A stretch of DNA of 59,596 nt from a virus. Lineage: Duplodnaviria > Caudoviricetes. The translations under genes were made by a program, and so were the position numbers. The DNA is taken from IMG/VR virus record IMGVR_UViG_3300037296_000151, positions 1 through 59,596 of that record, one strand, 5' to 3'. The notes beneath the pieces are model-generated. The model was given only the letters and a program-made list of their open reading frames with translations. It had not been told where the DNA came from and searched no databases. Shown here piece after piece: positions 51,745 through 58,414 of this stretch. Within the stretch, counting starts at the first letter, position 1, and every line of letters begins with the position of its first letter.

Positions 51745-53364
51745 GTGCTAGACGAGGCTCCGGCGGTAAACATACCCAACCCTCTACCGCTCGACTACGA
51801 GCCCAAGAACGCCGCAGAGCTACTGGCCTGCGCCCGCGCATCAGCCGAGTGGCGACTGTGCTCCGGCTACCTCTACAAGATCATCGTCAAAGAGACGGAC
51901 GACGCCGACGAAGCAGGCGTGGTCAAGCCGTTCAAGCCGAACAAGGCGCAACGCAAGTTCCTGCGCGAGATCCACTACCGCAACATCGTACTTAAGGCGC
52001 GTCAGTTGGGTTTCACCACCCTCTCTGCCATCCTCTTCCTCGATCACGCGCTATGGGTAGGTGACACCCAGCGTTGCGGCATCATTGCCCACACCATCGA
52101 GGCCGCAGAGGTGATCTTCCGCGACAAGGTGAAGTTTGCCTACTTCAACCTGCCCGAAGACATTCGCGCGCTCTTCCCGATCAAGACCGACAATGCGTCA
52201 GAAATCGTCTTTGCGCACAACAACAGCAGCATCCGCGTCTCGACCTCAATGCGCTCCGGCACGATCAACCGCCTGCATATCTCCGAAATGGGCAAGATTG
52301 CCGCCAAGAACCCCGAAAAGGCCGTGGAAATCGTCACAGGCTCGCTGCCAGCCGTGCCACAGAGCGGCATCGCCATCATCGAGAGTACCGCCGAGGGCAA
52401 GAGCGGCGAGTTCTACAACATGGCGACCCGCGCCGAGAAGCTGCACGCCATGGGCTTGCCGCTGACCAAGGATCAGTGGGCTTTCCACTTCTTTCCGTGG
52501 TTCATCACCCCCGATTACGTCACTGACCCCAGAAACGTGCGGATCAGCCCCGAAGAGCACGAATACTTCGACATCGTTGGTCGCGAAATGGGCGTGCGGA
52601 TCAAGCTGCCACAGCGGGCTTGGTACATCGCCAAGCGCGAGAACGAGCAGGGCGGCGATGTCGAGAAGATGTGGCGCGAGTACCCGTCGACACCTGCCGA
52701 GTGCTGGCAGCGCGGCACAGCAGGCACATTCTACGCGCCTCAGATGCTCCGAGCCCGCGCAGAGGGCCGCATCACCAAGCTGCGCCACGTCTCCAATGTG
52801 CCGGTCCACACGTTCTGGGACATCGGTTCTGGCGATGGCACTGGCATCTGGTCGATGCAGCACGTCGGCAATCAGCACCGCTTCCTCAAGTACATGGAGG
52901 ATTGGGCGCGGGGATACAGCTATTTCGTCAAGCAGTTGCGCGAGACAGGCTGGCTCTTTGGCGTCCACTACCTGCCCCACGACGCAGAGCATGAGCGGCA
53001 AGGCAAGGAGGGCACGTTCACGCCCCTGTCCTTGCTGCAAGACCTCGCCCCCGATTGGACCTTCCAGATCGTCCCGCGCATCCCTGACCTCTCCGTAGGC
53101 ATCCAAATGACACGCGAGAAGCTGTCAGAGGCTTGGTTCGATGTGGACGAGTGCGCCGAGGGCATCGAGCACATGGAGCTCTACCACAAAAAATGGAACG
53201 CCCGCATTGGCGCATTCACCGAAGAGCCGGAAAAGCTCGACGGACACTCAGAAGCCGCCGACGCGCTGCGCCAGTGGGCGCAAGGCTTCGATCCTACCCT
53301 CATGGGCAAGGCTTTCACCCCAAAATCACACAGACGCCGCCCAAAAGGAGGCATGGTTGCATGA
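51745..53364 (+). CDS. terL: Terminase large subunit, 539 aa
   Basis: LKARQLGFTT Walker A, LHISE, IESTAEG, WDIG, H.ADALR. Confidence 0.93.
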   Translation: MLDEAPAVNIPNPLPLDYEPKNAAELLACARASAEWRLCSGYLYKIIVKETDDADEAGVVKPFKPNKAQRKFLREIHYRNIVLKARQLGFTTLSAILFLDHALWVGDTQRCGIIAHTIEAAEVIFRDKVKFAYFNLPEDIRALFPIKTDNASEIVFAHNNSSIRVSTSMRSGTINRLHISEMGKIAAKNPEKAVEIVTGSLPAVPQSGIAIIESTAEGKSGEFYNMATRAEKLHAMGLPLTKDQWAFHFFPWFITPDYVTDPRNVRISPEEHEYFDIVGREMGVRIKLPQRAWYIAKRENEQGGDVEKMWREYPSTPAECWQRGTAGTFYAPQMLRARAEGRITKLRHVSNVPVHTFWDIGSGDGTGIWSMQHVGNQHRFLKYMEDWARGYSYFVKQLRETGWLFGVHYLPHDAEHERQGKEGTFTPLSLLQDLAPDWTFQIVPRIPDLSVGIQMTREKLSEAWFDVDECAEGIEHMELYHKKWNARIGAFTEEPEKLDGHSEAADALRQWAQGFDPTLMGKAFTPKSHRRRPKGGMVA

Positions 53365-53804
53365 CCCACGGAAACACCCAACCCGTTCTCGATCTATCAA
53401 AACGCGCATGGCAGAAAAGCTATGGCGATGTGACCGTCATTGGCACATGGACCTTGGGCAACCGCCGCCCGACGCTGGCTCTGGTGCCGACACGGCCCAA
53501 GCCGACGCATGACCGGGTTATCCCCTGCCTTGTGCCGATCGACCTCGCCTTTGCGTGGGACGAGCACACAGGCGATCCCGGCCATGCCGCGCAAATGTCC
53601 ATGCAGTTCGCCGCAGCCCTTGGCCTGAACCCCGTCGAGCCGCGCAACGTCGTCAAGGTGACGATGATCGTGCGCGAGCACCTGGGCGACCTTCTGATGA
53701 TGCCTTCAATGCCTGAAACCGAGCGCGAAATCGTTGCTGACGTGCTCCTGACCGACACCAACACCGGGAAAACCCGCGAGCAGGAGATTATGGACGATGT
53801 TTGA
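53361..53804 (+). CDS. Hypothetical protein between terL and portal, 147 aa
   Basis: AGGAGG SD; ATGA coupling. Confidence 0.75.
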   Translation: MTHGNTQPVLDLSKRAWQKSYGDVTVIGTWTLGNRRPTLALVPTRPKPTHDRVIPCLVPIDLAFAWDEHTGDPGHAAQMSMQFAAALGLNPVEPRNVVKVTMIVREHLGDLLMMPSMPETEREIVADVLLTDTNTGKTREQEIMDDV

Positions 53805-56118
53805 GAACGATACCGGAGACGACCCAGCCAAGCGCGGCCAAGTCTCTTTCAACAAAGCGACCTCGATGGACCCGCTTGACCGCTACGACTTCGGCAAGCC
53901 GATCACCAAGAAGGTTGCGCGCAACGATCTTGATGCTGACGAGGCGCAGGCCATCTGGCGCCGACTAACGGGCCACTACCGCCGCGAGCTTGAACGCCAG
54001 AGCGAGAACCGGATGCAAATGGCGATGGATGCCGACTTCTACGACGGTATCCAGTGGAGCGAAGAGGACGCGCAGTACCTCTTGGACCGCAGCCAGCAAC
54101 CCTTGGTCTATAACGTCATTGCGACCACGATTAACTGGCTGCTTGGCACCGAAAAGCGCGGGCGCACTGACTACAAAATCCTGCCCCGGCACGACGAGGG
54201 CAGCAAGAGCGCCGAGCGCAAGTCTCAGTTGCTCAAGTACCTCGCAGACGTGAACCGCTCCGAGTTCGCTATCTCTGCCGCCTTCGCTGATTGCGTGAAG
54301 GTGGGCGTGGGCTGGCTGGAATGTGGCGTTCAAGAGGACGACGAGGGCGAGCCGATCTACGACCGGCGCGAAAGCTGGCGCAATATCCTCTTCGACAGCA
54401 TGGCCGAGGAAATGGATACCTCCGATGGCCGCTACCAGTTCCGCACCAAATGGACTGACATGGACATCGCCAAGAGCATGTTCCCCGAGCGGCGCGCGAT
54501 CCTCGATCTGGCGGCCTCGACCTCCTTTGACCTAATGCGCAGCCTCGATGGCGATGGCGACGACGCCATGGACGCCGCCGAAAACGCCGCGGCGCAGACC
54601 TCCTTGCACGGCTCCCTCGATGATGTCGTGGCCGAGCGCGAGCGCGTGCGCTTGATCGAGGCATGGTTCCGCGTGCCCACCGAAAGCCGCTTTGTGCGTG
54701 GGGGGCAGTTCTCCGGCGAGTTGTTCGACCCGCGCAGCGAGGGACACCAGCAAGAGGTAATGATGGGCCGCTCTACGGTGGTGCGCAAAGTCCGTATGCG
54801 GATGCACGTCGCCATCTTCTGCGAGGCAGGCTTGCTCTTCCTTGCCAAGTCTCCCTACCGCCACAATGCTTTTCCATTCACCCCGATCTGGGCATACCGC
54901 CGCGACCGCGATGGCCTGCCCTATGGGCCAATCCGCCTCATGCGCGACCCGCAGTCGGACGTGAACAAGCGCGCCTCCAAGGCTCTGCATATCCTCTCTA
55001 GCTCCAAGGTGGTGATGGACGAGGGCGCAGTGCCCGATCTGGACGAGTTTGCCGAAGAGGTAGCGCGCCCCGATGCGATCATTGTCAAACGGCAGGGAAA
55101 AGAGCTTCGCTTTGACATCGACCGCGATCTAGCTGACGCGCACCTCAACCTCATGTCGTCGTCTATTCAGATGATCCAGAGCATGAGCGGGGTCACAGAC
55201 GAGAACCTTGGCCGCACCACCAACGCGACATCAGGCAAGGCGATCATCGCCCGGCAGGATCAAGGCTCACTCGCCACCGCCTCGATCTTCGACAACCTGC
55301 GCTTTGCCCGGCAGGTGCATGGCTCCAAGCAGCTATCGCTGACCGAGCAGTACATGACCGAGGAAAAGCAGTTCCGCATCACCAACATGCGCGGCAACCC
55401 TGAGTTCATCAAAGTGAACGATGGCCTGCCCGAAAACGACATGGTGCGCCACAAGGCCGATTACATCATCAGCGAGGACGATTGGAACGCCACCATGCGC
55501 CAAGCACAGGTGGAGCAGTTGCTCGAAATGATGGGCAGCTTGGGCCAAGTCGCGCCGCAGGTGGTCATGGCGACCCTCGATCTACTGGTCGAAACCATGG
55601 ACGTGCCGCAGCGTGAAGAGCTTGTGAAGCGTATCCGCCAGATCACCGGGCAAGAAGACCCCGACGCCGATCCCAACAACCCCGATCCCGAAACCATCCA
55701 GCGCAACCAAGCCAAGACAGAGCAAGCCGACTTCGAGAAGCGCGCCGCCATGGCCGAGTTGGAGGACAAGGAAGCCAGCGCCGCCTACAAGCGCGCGCAA
55801 ACCGAAAAGATGGGTGCAGAGACAGGCAAGGTCGTGGCCGAGATCCGCAACATTCTCGCCAACACCGCCAACAGCAACGTCGAGACGCAGGTACGCGCAC
55901 TAGAAGCCGCCGCCGCCATCATGGGAGCCAAAGGGCTCGCAGGCGTGGCCGACACAGTGCTCGAAGAGGCTGGTTTTACCTCCGCACCGCGCAAGGGTCT
56001 GCCCATGCCGGGGCAGGGCGTACCAATGCCAGCAGCGCCGCAAGCACCTCCCCAGCAGATCGAGCAGCCCGCAGCGCCGGGCCAGCAGATGATGAACCCA
56101 GAGCCGGGCGGTTACTGA
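53797..56118 (+). CDS. Portal protein, 773 aa
   Basis: DFYDGIQW, MRDPQSDVNKR, SGKAIIARQDQG; position. Confidence 0.9.
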   Translation: MFENDTGDDPAKRGQVSFNKATSMDPLDRYDFGKPITKKVARNDLDADEAQAIWRRLTGHYRRELERQSENRMQMAMDADFYDGIQWSEEDAQYLLDRSQQPLVYNVIATTINWLLGTEKRGRTDYKILPRHDEGSKSAERKSQLLKYLADVNRSEFAISAAFADCVKVGVGWLECGVQEDDEGEPIYDRRESWRNILFDSMAEEMDTSDGRYQFRTKWTDMDIAKSMFPERRAILDLAASTSFDLMRSLDGDGDDAMDAAENAAAQTSLHGSLDDVVAERERVRLIEAWFRVPTESRFVRGGQFSGELFDPRSEGHQQEVMMGRSTVVRKVRMRMHVAIFCEAGLLFLAKSPYRHNAFPFTPIWAYRRDRDGLPYGPIRLMRDPQSDVNKRASKALHILSSSKVVMDEGAVPDLDEFAEEVARPDAIIVKRQGKELRFDIDRDLADAHLNLMSSSIQMIQSMSGVTDENLGRTTNATSGKAIIARQDQGSLATASIFDNLRFARQVHGSKQLSLTEQYMTEEKQFRITNMRGNPEFIKVNDGLPENDMVRHKADYIISEDDWNATMRQAQVEQLLEMMGSLGQVAPQVVMATLDLLVETMDVPQREELVKRIRQITGQEDPDADPNNPDPETIQRNQAKTEQADFEKRAAMAELEDKEASAAYKRAQTEKMGAETGKVVAEIRNILANTANSNVETQVRALEAAAAIMGAKGLAGVADTVLEEAGFTSAPRKGLPMPGQGVPMPAAPQAPPQQIEQPAAPGQQMMNPEPGGY

Positions 56119-56132
56119 CCGCCCGCAACCCC

Positions 56133-56150
56133 TCGCATGAAGTGAAAGGA
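56133..56150 (+). promoter_or_regulatory. CsrA-type hairpin abutting the SD
   Basis: TCGC-ATGAA-GTGA then AAGGA. Confidence 0.6.
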
Positions 56151-56157
56151 CCACCAC

Positions 56158-56739
56158 ATGACCGGAGCCCTCTACGCCCGACGCCCCAACCCGGTAAAGG
56201 CCGTGCAGTGGCGCAAACACGGCGACCACCCCGATGTCACGCCTGCCGTGGATTGGCCCGGCACAGCGTCCGACACCCAAGGGAAAATTCGCATCCCCGG
56301 CCAAGGCATCATGCTTGTGAGCCCCGGCGATTGGATCGTGGACGGGCTCTCTGTCCACAACCCGCACCGCTTAATCATCCCTGCCGGCCGATTTGCGGAA
56401 GACTACCAACCCTACCCAACCAAGGAGAGAACCATGAGTGAACAAGACATCGAGGCAGAGATTGTCGCCAAGGGCAAGACCGCGCCACGCATCACCCCCG
56501 ACATGCTCGACGCAGAGATTGCAGACGAGGATTACCACGTCTTCAAAGGCTCATGCCTGACCATCTGCGTGCTGACGCTGCAAAACGGCTACAGCGTCGT
56601 GGGGCAAAGCGCCTGCGCCGATCCGGCCAACTTCGACGCCGAGATTGGCCGCAAGATTGCCCGCGAGAACGCCCGCAACGCCATCTGGCCGCTCTTGGGG
56701 TTCCGCCTCAAGGACCAACTGGCGCGGGGGGAAAGCTGA
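56158..56739 (+). CDS. Fusion of unknown AVQW/PGDWI domain and N4 Gp49/Sf6 gp66-family domain (internal start at 56434), 193 aa
   Basis: APRITP...LTICVLTLQNGYSVVGQSAC.DPANFDAEIGRKIA...IWPLLGF; internal AAGGAG SD. Confidence 0.8.
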   Translation: MTGALYARRPNPVKAVQWRKHGDHPDVTPAVDWPGTASDTQGKIRIPGQGIMLVSPGDWIVDGLSVHNPHRLIIPAGRFAEDYQPYPTKERTMSEQDIEAEIVAKGKTAPRITPDMLDAEIADEDYHVFKGSCLTICVLTLQNGYSVVGQSACADPANFDAEIGRKIARENARNAIWPLLGFRLKDQLARGES

Positions 56740-57302
56740 TGCCCCGTTTCACCAAGAAGCCCGTCACCATCGAGGCCGTGCAGTGGCACGAGCACGGCGA
56801 CCATCCGGCAGTGAAGGCCGAAATCCTGTCTGCATGGGCAAGCGAGACTGTCGGACCCGACACCCATGGCATGATCGAGACGCTGGAAGGCGATCACTGC
56901 GTTTCCCCCGGAGATTGGATCATCAAGGGCGTGAAGGGCGAGCTATACCCCTGCAAGCCTGACATTTTCGAGGCGACCTATGAGCCCGCCGATGGCATCG
57001 CCGGAAAGAGCATGGGTTTCGGCGGAGCTATCTCTGCGCTGAAAGAAGGCCACCGCGTTGCGCGTGAGGGCTGGAACGGCAAGGGCATGTGGCTCGCGCT
57101 CTCCTGCAACAACACCCGCGAGGTGCCTGCCGAGGGGTTTTGGTCGCCACACAACGCCCAGCACGCCCGCGACAATGGCGGCAGCGCCACGGTCCTGCCC
57201 TCCATCACCATGAAGACAGCCGATGGCTCGATCCTCATGGGCTGGCTTGCCTCGCAAACCGACATGCTGGCCGACGATTGGCACATCGTTGACCAGCAAT
57301 AA
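56739..57302 (+). CDS. Fusion of unknown KKPV/PGDWI domain and DUF2829 (Tad2-like) domain, 187 aa
   Basis: FGGAISALKEGHRVAREGWNGKGMWL...GWLASQTDMLADDW; TGATG coupling. Confidence 0.85.
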   Translation: MPRFTKKPVTIEAVQWHEHGDHPAVKAEILSAWASETVGPDTHGMIETLEGDHCVSPGDWIIKGVKGELYPCKPDIFEATYEPADGIAGKSMGFGGAISALKEGHRVAREGWNGKGMWLALSCNNTREVPAEGFWSPHNAQHARDNGGSATVLPSITMKTADGSILMGWLASQTDMLADDWHIVDQQ

Positions 57303-57309
57303 CACCAAC

Positions 57310-57326
57310 CGCATGACGTGAAAGGA
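57310..57326 (+). promoter_or_regulatory. CsrA-type hairpin abutting the SD
   Basis: CGC-ATGAC-GTG then AAAGGA. Confidence 0.55.
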
Positions 57327-57332
57327 AACCAC

Positions 57333-58211
57333 ATGGCGGAACACGACGACGATCTTCTCACAGAGGAAGAAATGGCAGCACTCGAAGCCGAAGAAGGCGA
57401 AGAGGTGGATGGCTCCGCGTCTCTCGAAGAGGATGCAGAGGCTTGGGCACGCTCCGGCTGGAAAGAACAGGGCATGGCCGCAGCCGACGACGACGAGGAC
57501 GACGAACCCGACGCGCAGCAGGAAGAGCCCGCGCCGCAGGAAGAGCCGAAGGAGCCTGAACAGCCCCGCGTCTCTACGTCCGAGTTGGACAAGCAGTTGT
57601 CCGATCTGCGCAAGCAGGACGACGAATTGCTCGATCAGTACGACGATGGCGACCTCACCCGCGAGGAACTGGCCGCCGCGCGTGCTGAGTTGCAGTCGAA
57701 GGCCGACGACCTGACCTCTTCTAAAGCTCTTGAAATGGCCCGCGCCGAGCAGGAAATGAAGGCGTGGAAAGCCAGCGTGGGCGGATACCTGAAAGAGTAT
57801 CCCGGCCTCAAGGACGACAAGGTGATCGAAGCCTTTGATGCCGAGGTGCGCGCAGTCACGTCGAGCCGGGCCTATGCCAGCATGACCTATGAGCAGCAGT
57901 TGGCACTGGCACACAAGCGTCTCGCGGCGACAGGCGAGGACATCGGCCTCGATGTGCCACCGCTCAAGGGTCGCAAGCAGGCTGACCCAGACCCGAAGCC
58001 GGGCAAGAAGTCAGAGGCCAAGGGCGAGGATCTGGGCGGCGTGCCAAAGACCCTTGCCCGCGTGCCTGCGTCGGATCGCACCGACGAGGATGGCGGCAAG
58101 TATTCGGCGCTACAGAAGATCGTGGACCGAGGCACCCCTGACGAAATCGAGGAAGCCTTGGGCCGCCTCTCGGAAGAAGAGCGCAACCGCTTTTCCTCCA
58201 TGCAAACCTAA
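57333..58211 (+). CDS. Putative capsid scaffolding protein, 292 aa
   Basis: Acidic N-terminus, coiled coil, position before capsid; SD favours ATG 57333. Confidence 0.75.
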   Translation: MAEHDDDLLTEEEMAALEAEEGEEVDGSASLEEDAEAWARSGWKEQGMAAADDDEDDEPDAQQEEPAPQEEPKEPEQPRVSTSELDKQLSDLRKQDDELLDQYDDGDLTREELAAARAELQSKADDLTSSKALEMARAEQEMKAWKASVGGYLKEYPGLKDDKVIEAFDAEVRAVTSSRAYASMTYEQQLALAHKRLAATGEDIGLDVPPLKGRKQADPDPKPGKKSEAKGEDLGGVPKTLARVPASDRTDEDGGKYSALQKIVDRGTPDEIEEALGRLSEEERNRFSSMQT

Positions 58212-58228: not shown

Positions 58229-58414
58229 TTGCTGGTTTTGAAGCTCAAAGCATCCGACAGGGTTATGATCGGCTCCACAGTCGTCAATGTCCGTGAAATC
58301 GGCAACGGCAGGGTGCGTCTCGCTATCGACGCACCCACCGATGTTCCGGTGACGAATGAGAGTGCACCATCGGCGCACCGAAAAGAGGGGATTGACAAGC
58401 CCTCTTCCCGTTGA
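58229..58414 (+). CDS. csrA: CsrA/RsmA-like RNA-binding protein, 61 aa
   Basis: MLVL...VMIG...V.V......VRLAIDAP..V.V aligns by eye with CsrA; AAGGA SD, TTG start. Confidence 0.8.
   Translation: MLVLKLKASDRVMIGSTVVNVREIGNGRVRLAIDAPTDVPVTNESAPSAHRKEGIDKPSSR

What the first reader, a model, noticed from the sequence alone, without database searches (positions are those of the whole stretch)
56158..57302. Duplicated unknown domain fused to two different immune-signal sponge families
Seen: two coupled genes between portal and scaffold begin with the same domain (YARRPNPVKAVQW..HGDHP...VSPGDWI and FTKKPVTIEAVQW..HGDHP...VSPGDWI). The first is fused to an N4 Gp49/Sf6 gp66-family domain, the second to DUF2829. 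Known: DUF2829 is the Tad2 family of sponges for Thoeris/cyclic nucleotide signals. From memory, to be verified: the Gp49 family (PF13876) includes the anti-CBASS sponge Acb4. Inference: a domain fused twice to sponges is a strong candidate for a further anti-defence module (sponge or signal-degrading enzyme), giving a four-domain counter-defence cassette under hairpin control.
Basis: partly seen in the sequence, partly recalled or inferred. Interest (0 to 1): 0.82.

Follow-up and report, generated by a model that had tools for sequence, protein, structure and literature searches.

The report
Two sponge genes sharing an unknown domain
A phage carries two back-to-back genes for proteins that soak up bacterial alarm molecules, and both begin with the same small, very widespread domain of unknown function that keeps turning up beside such immune-signalling genes and deserves a laboratory test.

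Summary
Gene A (56158-56739) and gene B (56739-57302, TGATG overlap) lie between portal and scaffold. Both start with a homologous ~88-aa domain (40% identity, E 2e-11). A ends in an Acb4-family domain (PF13876, E 1.6e-28) and B in a Tad2-family domain (PF11195, E 2.1e-23).

The shared N-domain is a predicted SH3/Tudor-like barrel. It matches no Pfam family above threshold, only a weak PGDYG hit. Its family is very large: 23,783 clusters at 50% identity, and 840 of 50,697 isolate phage records. Most members stand alone.

A minority are fused to Tad2, Acb4 or Sequestin, or to MazG, NADAR and other domains. Stand-alone copies are rarely next to known sponges. However, I found N-domain genes beside sponge genes in two genomes, and nested antisense between the TIR and SLATT genes of type VII Thoeris-like pairs in four loci.

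No paper I found characterises the domain. An analogous small N-terminal domain of RyR Tad was inactive alone and forms a swapped dimer. So the sponge assignments are solid, while an anti-defence role for the N-domain is plausible (about 45%) but unproven. First readers of this scan flagged similar PGDYG-like::Tad2 fusions in several other genomes.

The parts
53797..56118 (+). portal gene, upstream border of the variable slot
   Evidence: 773-aa ORF. It is 45-58% identical to portals of 11 IMG/VR relatives that share the order terL-portal-scaffold-MCP.
56103..56126 (+). GC-rich hairpin spanning the portal stop codon
   Evidence: Fold of 56095-56160: -21.5 kcal/mol, z -3.1, 1 of 200 shuffles as good. 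No T-run follows, and the scan does not call it a terminator.
56134..56150 (+). 17-nt motif CGCATGA(A/C)GTGAAAGGA, copy 1, holding the ribosome-binding site of gene A
   Evidence: There are two exact matches to the pattern in the window, here and at 57310. A third site has 2 mismatches, and 0.06 matches are expected by chance.
56158..56739 (+). gene A: N-domain (degenerate copy) fused to an Acb4-family domain, 193 aa
56158..56421 (+). N-domain copy A (residues 1 to about 88)
   Evidence: Profile hit E 3.3e-22. 40% identity to copy B. At most 38-41% identical to any of about 370 family members, and the conserved C-terminal motif is lost.
56424..56436 (+). internal AAGGAGA-N3-ATG (Met93): retained start region of a once separate Acb4 gene, and a possible internal start
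   Evidence: Sequence read. The region is unstructured, -2.8 kcal/mol. Stand-alone Acb4 homologues in phages align from residues 88-93 of gene A, and phrog_322 matches from residue 90.
56491..56718 (+). Acb4-family (PF13876) domain of gene A
   Evidence: Pfam E 1.6e-28, residues 112-187. SPO1 Acb4 structure 9E4W, E 0.002.
56739..57302 (+). gene B: N-domain (consensus-like copy) fused to a Tad2-family domain, 187 aa
   Evidence: Closest protein is P0264, 76% identical over the N-domain, named DUF2829 protein of Palleronia pelagia by its source.
56739..57002 (+). N-domain copy B (residues 1 to about 88)
   Evidence: Profile hit E 9.6e-41. AlphaFold2 model pLDDT 85.2, pTM 0.75, six strands plus one helix.
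57012..57290 (+). Tad2-family (PF11195) domain of gene B
   Evidence: Pfam E 2.1e-23. Solved Tad2 structures 8KBI E 8e-18, 8WJD, 9EIB, 8SME. Met92 aligns with the first Met of the solved stand-alone Tad2 8KBI.
57310..57326 (+). 17-nt motif, copy 2, holding the ribosome-binding site of the scaffold gene. With copy 1 it brackets the cassette.
57318..58211 (+). scaffold-like acidic protein (likely start ATG 57333), downstream border of the slot
   Evidence: ORF. 29-34% identical to the matching gene of relatives. No Pfam hit.

Best explanation
Genes A and B form a translationally coupled counter-defence cassette. It was inserted into a variable slot of the head-gene operon, between portal and scaffold, and is bracketed by a duplicated 17-nt ribosome-binding-site motif.

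Each gene is an in-frame fusion of an ~88-aa SH3/Tudor-like beta-barrel (the N-domain) to a complete sponge gene. The sponge part still carries its ancestral first Met, and in A also its Shine-Dalgarno sequence. Gene A may therefore also yield free Acb4 from Met93.

By homology, the C-terminal part of A is an Acb4-type sponge, expected to form tetramers that sequester CBASS cyclic dinucleotides. The C-terminal part of B is a Tad2-type sponge, expected to sequester Thoeris NAD-derived signals, and in some Tad2 proteins other nucleotides as well.

The N-domain is none of the described sponge families. It belongs to a very large, uncharacterised phage family distantly related to Pfam PGDYG. My preferred reading is that it is an autonomous module acting on the same nucleotide immune-signalling axis, most likely TIR/NAD-derived signals, by binding the signal or otherwise neutralising the pathway.

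Shown: the sequences, the domain matches, the fusions and the gene neighbourhoods. Inferred: every activity. My odds are about 0.9 that the C-terminal domains are functional members of the sponge families, and about 0.45 that the N-domain has such an activity of its own.
For: C-terminal domains: Pfam, PHROG and PDB matches. The published function of both families was read in passages of Chang et al. and Tal et al..

The slot is variable and collects such genes.
- Relative L097 has portal-KTSC-DUF6378-Tad2-[X+Tad2]-scaffold.
- Ruegeria phage 45A6 has portal-[X+Tad2]-[stand-alone N]-...-scaffold.
- 3 of 11 further relatives carry Acb4, X+Sequestin|Acb4 or X between scaffold and MCP.

N-domain fusions:
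- Among the 120 best hits of 102-328 aa: 7 Sequestin, 5 Acb4 (one protein holds both) and 2 Tad2, one of them the query itself.
- Among the 120 best longer hits: 16 proteins carry Tad2, Acb4 and/or Sequestin (8, 5 and 4; one has two), 8 carry other Pfam families, and 96 carry none.
- The other identifiable partners are mostly nucleotide-related: MazG, dATP/dGTP pyrophosphohydrolase, NADAR, DNA methylase.

N-domain acting in trans beside sponges:
- 45A6.
- Prevotella prophage L186, with the N gene two ORFs upstream of a Sequestin+Tad2 fusion.

N-domain gene nested antisense between SLATT and ThsB-type TIR genes:
- Viral contig L020.
- Three bacterial genomes. That is 3 of 81 genomes of that family and 3 of 9 N places found there.
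- The layout is kept although TIR and SLATT are only 39-45% identical between loci.
- TIR+SLATT is type VII Thoeris, which signals with canonical cADPR (passages of Yirmiya et al.).

The family is large and strongly conserved.
Against: - Most N-domain genes stand alone: about 70 of 78 IMG/VR loci have no C-terminal extension over 40 aa.
- Of their 150 immediate neighbour ORFs, none of the 25 most frequent Pfam families was a sponge family. Terminase was the commonest, with 7. The remaining 23 of the 48 families found were not shown to me.
- My own narrow HMMs found a sponge domain within about 4 kb in only 2 of 80 loci.
- In the less biased set at 50% clustering, only 1 of 91 longer members carried Acb4.
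- C-terminal partners are extremely diverse: 199 extensions fall into 149 clusters.
- Some N genes sit between housekeeping genes.
- The fold is a generic small barrel. The best PDB matches are Z 3.8 (2.0 A, 42 residues) for the single domain and Z 5.4 (2.7 A, 50 residues) for the tandem form, with no Foldseek hit at E <= 1e-3.
- The core motif also occurs as a 30-fold repeat in a 3743-aa protein, so it may be a fold signature rather than an active site.
- Copy A has lost that motif.
- A different small N-terminal domain (X), which shares the same partner set (Tad2, Sequestin; Acb4 as the neighbouring gene), was inactive alone against type I Thoeris and forms a strand-swapped dimer in the RyR Tad crystal (passages).
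- Supplementary tables of Tal et al. were closed, so I cannot exclude that N-domain proteins were among their tested candidates that showed no activity.
Confidence: 0.5

Rival explanations
1. The N-domain is an architectural module, for example a strand-swapping dimeriser or clamp. It helps fused cargo domains assemble or stay soluble, and it has no ligand or anti-defence activity of its own.
For: - In RyR Tad, the small beta N-terminal domain (X) was inactive alone. In the crystal it swaps its first strand to help dimerise the protein (passages of bioRxiv 10.64898/2026.06.04.730250).
- N and X precede the same partners: Tad2 and Sequestin, with Acb4 fused to N and encoded by the gene next to X fusions.
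- N and X share a colinear C-terminal motif. hhalign gives probability 27% over 37 columns, pairwise E 7e-4.
- N is nearly always N-terminal: 174 N+C-extension architectures against 19 with an N-terminal extension, among 369 proteins.
- Natural tandem NN proteins exist. The model of one has pLDDT 81.6 and pTM 0.62.
- The core motif recurs as a structural repeat.
Against: - Most family members are stand-alone proteins of about 75-130 aa, which need a function of their own.
- In Ruegeria phage 45A6 the N gene is separate and sits beside an X+Tad2 fusion that already has its own N-terminal domain.
- Tad2 and Acb4 form tetramers without any extra domain in the published structures (passages).
- The nested position in TIR-SLATT pairs is hard to explain for a mere assembly tag.
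- Homology of N and X is not established: hhalign probability was 3% with the first alignment.
Confidence: 0.28
2. The N-domain is a distant relative of Acb5, the small tetrameric phage enzyme that cuts 3'3'-cGAMP into 2'3'-cyclic mononucleotides. The fusions would then pair a signal-degrading enzyme with a sponge.
For: - This subfamily has nearly invariant His, Asp, Glu and Trp residues in loops: W16, D21, H22, E50, H53, D59, W60.
- Acb5 activity depends on an Arg, a Trp and a His (sections 8 of Tal et al.).
- Both occur in Bacillus, Mycobacterium and Streptomyces phages and in haloarchaeal viruses.
Against: - Taxon profiles differ. Acb5 was reported in 96 complete phage genomes, 66 of them Streptomyces phages. 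The N-domain hits 840 records, with Streptomyces outside the top ten, and a Streptomyces-phage member recovers only 22 Streptomyces records.
- Minimal family members lack the His residues altogether.
- No Acb5 sequence could be obtained, because the supplements were closed. Residue numbering could not be matched on the Streptomyces-phage member I read.
Confidence: 0.07
3. The N-domain targets its cargo to the virion, by binding portal, scaffold or capsid interior. The sponges would then be packaged and injected with the DNA.
For: - The cassette lies inside the head-gene operon, directly after the portal gene.
- N genes are often just upstream of terminase genes: Terminase_6C in 7 and Terminase_3 in 1 of 150 neighbour ORFs.
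- A conserved N-terminus with hypervariable C-termini is typical of targeting domains.
- The weak top Foldseek hit is a phage decoration protein, E 0.48.
Against: - In other phages the gene lies among small early or non-structural genes: Goe2, the right arm of mycobacteriophages, and after recombination genes in a Streptomyces phage.
- It also occurs in bacterial TIR-SLATT loci and between housekeeping genes.
- Sponges act stoichiometrically, so a few injected copies would do little (established knowledge about sponges, not tested here).
Confidence: 0.05
4. The N-domain has a role unrelated to immunity, for example binding a host protein or nucleic acid for takeover. Its fusions to sponges would be chance products of gene-dense accessory regions where neighbouring small genes fuse by stop-codon loss.
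For: - Both fusions here keep the ancestral Met of the sponge gene, and A keeps its Shine-Dalgarno sequence, as expected for read-through of once separate neighbours.
- Partners include unrelated domains: acyl carrier protein, RF-1, DnaJ zinc finger, DUF551.
- 96 of the 120 best longer hits have no recognisable partner.
Against: - Three different sponge families recur as partners. Fusions occur in distant hosts: Rhodobacterales, Latilactobacillus and metagenomes.
- Sponge families are a tiny share of phage genes, yet they make up 16 of the 24 Pfam-annotated partners.
- There are further links to TIR-SLATT pairs.
Confidence: 0.1

Closest known systems
Acb4 (anti-CBASS 4, Bacillus phage SPO1; Pfam PF13876, N4 Gp49/Sf6 gp66 family)
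   Same: The C-terminal ~100 residues of gene A match PF13876 at 99.5 bits and the solved SPO1 Acb4 (9E4W). The NF-x-x-EIGR stretch is conserved, as are three pocket positions: F48->Y145, F62->F159, I66->I163.
   Different: Here it is preceded in-frame by a 92-residue N-terminal extension. Five ligand-contact positions differ (K36->C, E49->S, Y57->A, T70->I, K81->P by the alignment), so the ligand cannot be predicted. Tetramer formation and binding were not tested.
Tad2 (Thoeris anti-defence 2; Pfam PF11195/DUF2829), including HgmTad2/AcrIIA7, SptTad2 and SPO1 gp34.65
   Same: Residues 91-185 of gene B align end to end with seven solved Tad2-family sequences, E 8e-18 to 2e-11. The GWNGKGM and WLASQTDMLA-DW motifs are conserved.
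   Different: An extra N-terminal domain is present. Which of the known Tad2 ligands it binds (gcADPR, His-ADPR, cyclic dinucleotides, cUMP/cCMP) is unknown.
Published two-domain sponges: Acb4-Tad2 (Pasteurella phage Pm86), Sequestin-Tad2, Sequestin-Acb4 (Tal et al., bioRxiv 10.1101/2025.07.12.664507; phage Ab09 gp59, bioRxiv 10.64898/2026.06.04.730250)
   Same: The logic is the same: small anti-signalling domains are strung together or placed side by side, and fusion to Tad2/Acb4 was the clue that revealed Sequestin (passages).
   Different: The shared partner here is not Sequestin. There is no PF21825 hit at E <= 10, and it is beta-rich rather than helical. It has no Pfam family above threshold, so a fusion census based on Pfam would not list it (method read).
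RyR Tad (Pectobacterium phage CB1 gp68): N-terminal small beta domain plus RyR-repeat gcADPR sponge
   Same: [quoted passage not shown] That X domain is also fused to Tad2 and Sequestin in relatives of this phage. It shares a colinear ...P-D-(I/V)-F-E-x-x-Y... motif with the N-domain.
   Different: No significant sequence homology to the N-domain: hhalign probability 3% and 27%. X alone had no activity against type I Thoeris and dimerises by strand swap. Nothing comparable is known for N.
Pfam PGDYG (PF14083), a family of unknown function
   Same: The same PGD(W/Y)-...-YP-...-F-...-Y core. A tandem family member, P0062, scores 52.7 bits, and 17 of 91 longer members hit at E <= 1e-3. Some records annotate homologues as 'PGDYG protein'.
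   Different: The two window copies score below the gathering cut-off: B 15-16 bits against 27, and A gives no hit. The Pfam model spans parts of two tandem units. No paper in the searched library holds 'PGDYG' or 'PF14083'.

Membership tests
Acb4 / PF13876 (C-terminal domain of gene A) | Sequence match to the family model above the curated cut-off | tested here: met
   99.5 bits against a cut-off of 27, profile positions 1-81 of 82. phrog_322 E 7.4e-50.
Acb4 / PF13876 (C-terminal domain of gene A) | Similarity to the solved founding member (SPO1 Acb4, 9E4W) and conservation of its ligand-contact residues | tested here: inconclusive
   phmmer E 0.002 over 51 residues. Of the positions named in the paper, F48, F62 and I66 are conserved or conservatively replaced. 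K36, E49, Y57, T70 and K81 are not.
Acb4 / PF13876 (C-terminal domain of gene A) | Homotetramer that sequesters cyclic dinucleotides and blocks CBASS | not testable with these tools
   Needs protein biochemistry and plaque assays.
Tad2 / PF11195 (C-terminal domain of gene B) | Sequence match to the family model above the curated cut-off, and to solved Tad2 proteins | tested here: met
   83.1 bits against a cut-off of 25, profile positions 1-73 of 73. 8KBI E 8.1e-18, 8WJD 5.6e-16, 9EIB 2.2e-12, 8SME 2.4e-11.
Tad2 / PF11195 (C-terminal domain of gene B) | Homotetramer that sequesters gcADPR or related signals and blocks Thoeris | not testable with these tools
   Needs biochemistry and plaque assays.
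Sequestin / PF21825 (considered for the N-domain) | Match to PF21825, and a helical 60-80-aa fold | tested here: not met
   No PF21825 hit for either N-domain at E <= 10. The model is six beta strands plus one short helix. PF21825 does occur as a separate domain C-terminal to the N-domain in other proteins.
PGDYG / PF14083 (considered for the N-domain) | Score above the Pfam gathering cut-off (27 bits) | tested here: not met
   Copy B: 16.4 and 15.0 bits. Copy A: no hit. The relationship at superfamily level is supported by intermediate members.
Lockin (considered for the N-domain) | Beta-rich protomer forming a hexameric cog. The authors reported it absent from complete phage genomes of INPHARED. 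| tested here: inconclusive
   The N-domain is present in 840 of 50,697 INPHARED-derived records, which does not fit the reported distribution. No Lockin sequence was available, because the supplements were closed. No PDB sequence or fold match of any kind was found.
Acb5 (considered for the N-domain) | Homotetramer with Arg/Trp/His pocket residues that cleaves 3'3'-cGAMP | not testable with these tools
   Sequences are only in closed supplements. Taxon distributions differ.
TadIV-1 (considered for the N-domain) | Helical dimer of about 90 aa, confined to Straboviridae | tested here: not met
   The paper describes two antiparallel helices per protomer and a narrow host range (passages). The N-domain is a beta barrel with a very wide host range.
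N-terminal domain of RyR Tad (X domain) | Detectable homology to CB1 gp68 residues 1-86 | tested here: inconclusive
   hhalign probability 0.2% (single sequence), 3% (8-sequence alignment) and 27% (12 sequences, 37 columns).

The most novel reading that the evidence does not exclude
The PGDYG-like N-domain is a new and very large family of immune-signal-binding proteins aimed at TIR-made NAD derivatives such as canonical cADPR. Phages would use it as a stand-alone or fused sponge. A subset of type VII Thoeris loci would keep a copy, antisense between the TIR and SLATT genes, as a built-in buffer or off-switch. If so, the window encodes four signal-handling domains in two proteins, and about 1.7% of isolate phage records (840 of 50,697) carry an unrecognised anti-Thoeris gene.
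Probability: 0.22. Interest if true: 0.85.

Novelty: new variant of a known kind. Interest (0 to 1): 0.6.

Why it matters
Sponge proteins are a main way in which phages silence CBASS, Thoeris and Pycsar. Fusion to Tad2/Acb4 is exactly how Sequestin was found. The domain described here has the same kind of fusion record, but no Pfam family covers it, so a Pfam-based fusion census would not list it.

It is far more abundant than any described sponge family in the counts I could make: 23,783 clusters at 50% identity, and 840 isolate phage records. If it binds or destroys an immune signal, it would be one of the commonest anti-defence genes in phages. Its nested position in TIR-SLATT pairs would also point to a regulatory layer inside a bacterial defence system.

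If instead it is only an assembly module, like the N-terminal domain of RyR Tad appears to be, that would explain a recurrent architecture of sponge proteins. Either answer is reachable with routine binding and plaque assays.

Tried and rejected
- **Homodimer prediction** of the N-domain (complex prediction, 2 copies, alignment A1): score 0.28 against a mark of 0.42, no verdict, controls not run. It counts neither for nor against self-association.
- **PDB by sequence:** single sequence, 0 hits at E <= 10. Profile, one chance-level hit at E 2.6.
- **PDB by fold:**
  - Foldseek found no match at E <= 1e-3.
  - VIA-align wide gave a best Z of 3.8 (2.0 A, 42 residues) for the single domain.
  - It gave Z 5.4 (2.7 A, 50 residues) for a natural tandem protein.
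  - All hits are generic SH3/Tudor barrels. This does not show a new fold.
- **BFVD** returned only uncharacterised or 'PGDYG' phage proteins. The **ESM Atlas** gave the same. **NCBIfam** had nothing.
- **Goe2 neighbours:** 10 ORFs around the stand-alone gene, no Pfam hit.
- **Capsid-targeting idea:** kept only as a weak rival.
- **Recent tandem duplication of the two N-domains:** rejected. Copy B is 76% identical to a Palleronia protein, while copy A's eight best hits among about 370 family members are other proteins at 33-42% identity, not copy B.
- **N-Acb4 fusions in isolate phages:** 7 records covered at least 80% of gene A. The one I opened, Acidovorax phage AP1, is X+Tad2 followed by a separate Acb4, and the apparent N part is an overlapping open frame. 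I therefore make no claim about isolates. N-Acb4 fusions are documented only from the metagenome protein sets.
- **Net charge** does not discriminate. N-domains have median pI 5.7, and the sponge domains are equally acidic.
- **Literature searches:**
  - 'PGDYG'/'PF14083': 0 papers.
  - 'PF13876': 6 papers held, 3 listed.
  - 'Acb4', 'Acb5', 'TadIV-1' and a five-term search on Tad2 with an N-terminal domain.
  - In the listings and passages I read, none describes the N-domain.
  - My statement that it is uncharacterised rests on these searches only, and supplementary tables were closed.
- Sequencing-run and read-mapping tools were not used.
Full report
**What is in the sequence.**
The window is a whole virus record of 59,596 bases, with CheckV completeness 98. 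On the + strand the late region reads:
- terL, 51745-53364
- portal, 53797-56118
- gene A, 56158-56739
- gene B, 56739-57302
- an acidic scaffold-like gene, ORF from 57318, likely ATG at 57333, to 58211
- a CsrA-like gene, 58229-58414
- the major capsid gene, from 58499

A and B overlap as TGATG. Their first ~88 residues are homologous: 40% identity, E 2e-11. A family profile finds both, and only these two, in the record. Gene A continues into PF13876 (99.5 bits) and gene B into PF11195 (83.1 bits).

**The C-terminal domains.**
PF13876 is the Acb4 family. I read the passages of Chang et al. (bioRxiv 10.1101/2024.12.30.630793) that place SPO1 Acb4 in PF13876 and describe a tetramer that sequesters 3'3'-cGAMP. 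Gene A also hits the solved SPO1 protein 9E4W (E 0.002).

Using the contact residues listed in that paper, the adenine-pocket positions are kept (F62, I66, and F48 as Tyr). The guanine-pocket and backbone contacts differ. The ligand therefore cannot be read from the sequence.

Gene B aligns end to end with seven solved Tad2-family sequences, E 8e-18 to 2e-11. Filing both C-terminal domains in these families is well supported. Their activities remain inferred.

**How the fusions look.**
Stand-alone Acb4 homologues in isolate phages align with gene A from residues 88-93. Residue 93 is a Met, preceded by AAGGAGA at the right spacing in an unstructured stretch. Met92 of gene B aligns with the first Met of the solved stand-alone Tad2 8KBI.

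Both genes thus look like an N-domain ORF that reads through into a complete sponge gene. Gene A may still produce free Acb4 from the internal start (inference).

A 17-nt motif holding the ribosome-binding site occurs exactly twice, in front of gene A and in front of the scaffold gene, so it brackets the cassette (0.06 matches expected by chance). This fits insertion of the two genes into a portal-scaffold junction.

A stable hairpin covers the portal stop codon. It has no T-run, and no promoter-like site was found. 'Hairpin control' is therefore not shown.

**The slot is a collecting place for such genes.**
- A relative with a 51% identical portal (L097) has portal-KTSC-DUF6378-Tad2-[X+Tad2]-scaffold.
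- Ruegeria phage 45A6 has portal-[X+Tad2, 147 aa]-[stand-alone N-domain, 92 aa]-three further ORFs, the last with a weak Tad2-like end-scaffold-capsid.
- Of 11 further IMG/VR relatives, 3 carry Acb4, X+Sequestin followed by Acb4, or X between scaffold and capsid gene. In the other 8 my five HMMs found nothing.

'X' is a second small beta domain. It is the same one that forms the N-terminus of RyR Tad (CB1 gp68).

**What the N-domain is.**
- *Curated families.* Pfam gives only sub-threshold PGDYG hits for copy B and nothing relevant for copy A. NCBIfam gives nothing. The PHROG families that match are all of unknown function.
- *Fold.* The AlphaFold2 model (pLDDT 85.2, pTM 0.75) is a six-stranded small barrel with one short helix. 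It resembles SH3/Tudor barrels only generically: best Z 3.8 at 2.0 A over 42 residues, and no Foldseek hit at E <= 1e-3.
- *Size.* A profile search finds 23,783 representatives at E <= 1e-3, of which 13,169 are at E <= 1e-10. tblastn finds the domain in 840 of 50,697 phage records, from Bacillus, Mycobacterium, Staphylococcus, Gordonia, Streptococcus, Acinetobacter, Vibrio and Caulobacter phages to a haloarchaeal virus.
- *Conservation.* It is high, with consensus ...RKKPV-IEA-QW---GDHP...TLEGGH-V-PGDWII-G-KGE-YPCKPDIF--TYE. Many members have a CxxC...HxH insert.
- *Caveats.* Minimal members and a 3743-aa protein with 30 repeats keep only the PGDW...YP...F...Y core. That core may therefore be a fold signature. 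Copy A in the window has lost it, and copy B is consensus-like.

**Association with immune-signal genes: for.**
- Among the 120 best hits of 102-328 aa there are 7 Sequestin, 5 Acb4 (one protein holds both) and 2 Tad2 fusions, one being the query.
- Among the 120 best hits of 161-2000 aa, 16 carry Tad2 (8), Acb4 (5) and/or Sequestin (4). Eight carry other families: MazG twice, dATP/dGTP pyrophosphohydrolase, NADAR, DNA methylase, RF-1, acyl carrier and DUF7736. The remaining 96 carry none.
- A single-CDS N+Tad2 fusion exists in a Latilactobacillus phage.
- The N gene lies beside X+Tad2 in 45A6. It lies two ORFs upstream of a Sequestin+Tad2 fusion in a Prevotella genome.
In viral contig L020 the N gene fills the gap between a SLATT gene and a ThsB-type TIR gene, on the opposite strand (Pfam).
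- The same layout is in Faecalibacillus faecis, Clostridiales VE202-01 and a third genome. That is 3 of 81 genomes of that family, and 3 of the 9 N places found there. TIR and SLATT are only 39-45% identical between loci, so the arrangement is old.
- TIR+SLATT is type VII Thoeris, which signals with canonical cADPR (passages of Yirmiya et al., bioRxiv 10.64898/2025.12.03.692087).

**Association: against.**
- In 80 IMG/VR loci chosen by N-domain similarity, 78 gave an ORF call, and about 70 of these have no extension over 40 aa.
- Their 150 flanking ORFs gave 48 Pfam families. None of the 25 shown was a sponge family, and terminase led with 7.
- My own narrow HMMs found a sponge domain in only 2 of the 80 loci.
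- In the set clustered at 50% identity, 1 of 91 longer members had Acb4.
- The 199 extensions fall into 149 clusters.
- Two N genes sit between glycosidase genes, or between thioesterase and formate-lyase genes.
- The counts are biased, because the query itself comes from a fusion and related sequences share ancestry.

**What is in print.**
Tal et al. (bioRxiv 10.1101/2025.07.12.664507; I read the outline, sections 7 and 8, and passages) found Sequestin by asking Pfam which unknown families are fused to Tad2 or Acb4. A domain without a Pfam family cannot appear in such a query.

- The N-domain is not Sequestin or TadIV-1, both of which are helical.
- Its distribution does not fit Lockin, reported absent from complete phage genomes.
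- Its distribution does not fit Acb5 either, reported in 96 genomes, 66 of them Streptomyces phages.
- I could not compare sequences, because these are in closed supplements.

The closest precedent is RyR Tad (bioRxiv 10.64898/2026.06.04.730250, passages). [quoted passage not shown]

That domain (X) and the N-domain precede the same partners and share a colinear motif. Homology is not established, with hhalign probability of 3% and 27%.

**Verdict.**
The cassette is a real pair of sponge-family genes in an anti-defence slot of the head operon. As such it is a new variant of the known multi-domain sponge theme.

The shared N-domain is the interesting part. It is a very abundant, unnamed phage domain with repeated, independent links to Thoeris-type genes, on both the phage side and the defence side. 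I put about 0.45 on an activity of its own on that signalling axis, about 0.28 on a purely architectural role, and the rest on the other rivals. All activities are inferred, and the tests that would decide are routine.

First readers of this scan flagged similar PGDYG-like::Tad2 fusions in several other genomes, and also reported Tad1 and DHH fusions. I did not verify those, apart from the TIR-SLATT layout and the X+Tad2 next to N layout, both of which I found independently on other DNA.

Noticed in passing
window 58229-58414 (+): A 61-aa CsrA-family protein (PF02599, E 5.8e-10) is encoded between the scaffold and major capsid genes. In relatives the same slot holds Acb4, or X-domain and Sequestin genes.
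   Followed up: partly
L020:2102-3280; L182/L191; L183/L192; L198: An N-domain gene is nested antisense in the ~300-nt gap between SLATT (DUF4231/SLATT_1) and ThsB-type TIR genes, a type VII Thoeris-like pair. It occurs in one viral contig and three bacterial genomes. The layout is kept while TIR and SLATT diverge to 39-45% identity.
   Followed up: partly
L097:2316-3562; L166:3938-5811; L175:2861-3645; L179:8213-8443: A second small beta domain (X, ...GY-V-Y-DG...Y-SWSP-DVFE--Y...) is the same as the N-terminus of RyR Tad (CB1 gp68). In relatives of this phage it is fused to Tad2 or Sequestin, or stands alone, in the head-gene slots. It has no Pfam family.
   Followed up: partly
protein P0122 (3743 aa, from the representative search): A giant protein holds about 30 tandem repeats of the C-terminal half of the N-domain (GDW--TG--GE...F---Y). 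This suggests the core motif is a structural repeat unit.
   Followed up: no
L184:2501-2746; L185:2501-2743: Orphan N-domain genes, 74-78% identical to the Thoeris-nested one, lie between housekeeping genes of Erysipelotrichaceae MAGs: two GH1 glycosidases in one, and acyl-ACP thioesterase and pyruvate formate-lyase in the other.
   Followed up: no
window 56134-56150 and 57310-57326: Two exact matches to the 17-nt motif CGCATGA(A/C)GTGAAAGGA, which includes the ribosome-binding site, lie in front of gene A and the scaffold gene. This is a possible footprint of how the cassette was inserted.
   Followed up: partly
L170:2750-3690 (Acidovorax phage AP1): X+Tad2 (166 aa) is followed by a separate Acb4 gene near the integrase. 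A tblastn match that looked like an N-Acb4 fusion was an overlapping open frame in GC-rich DNA.
   Followed up: yes
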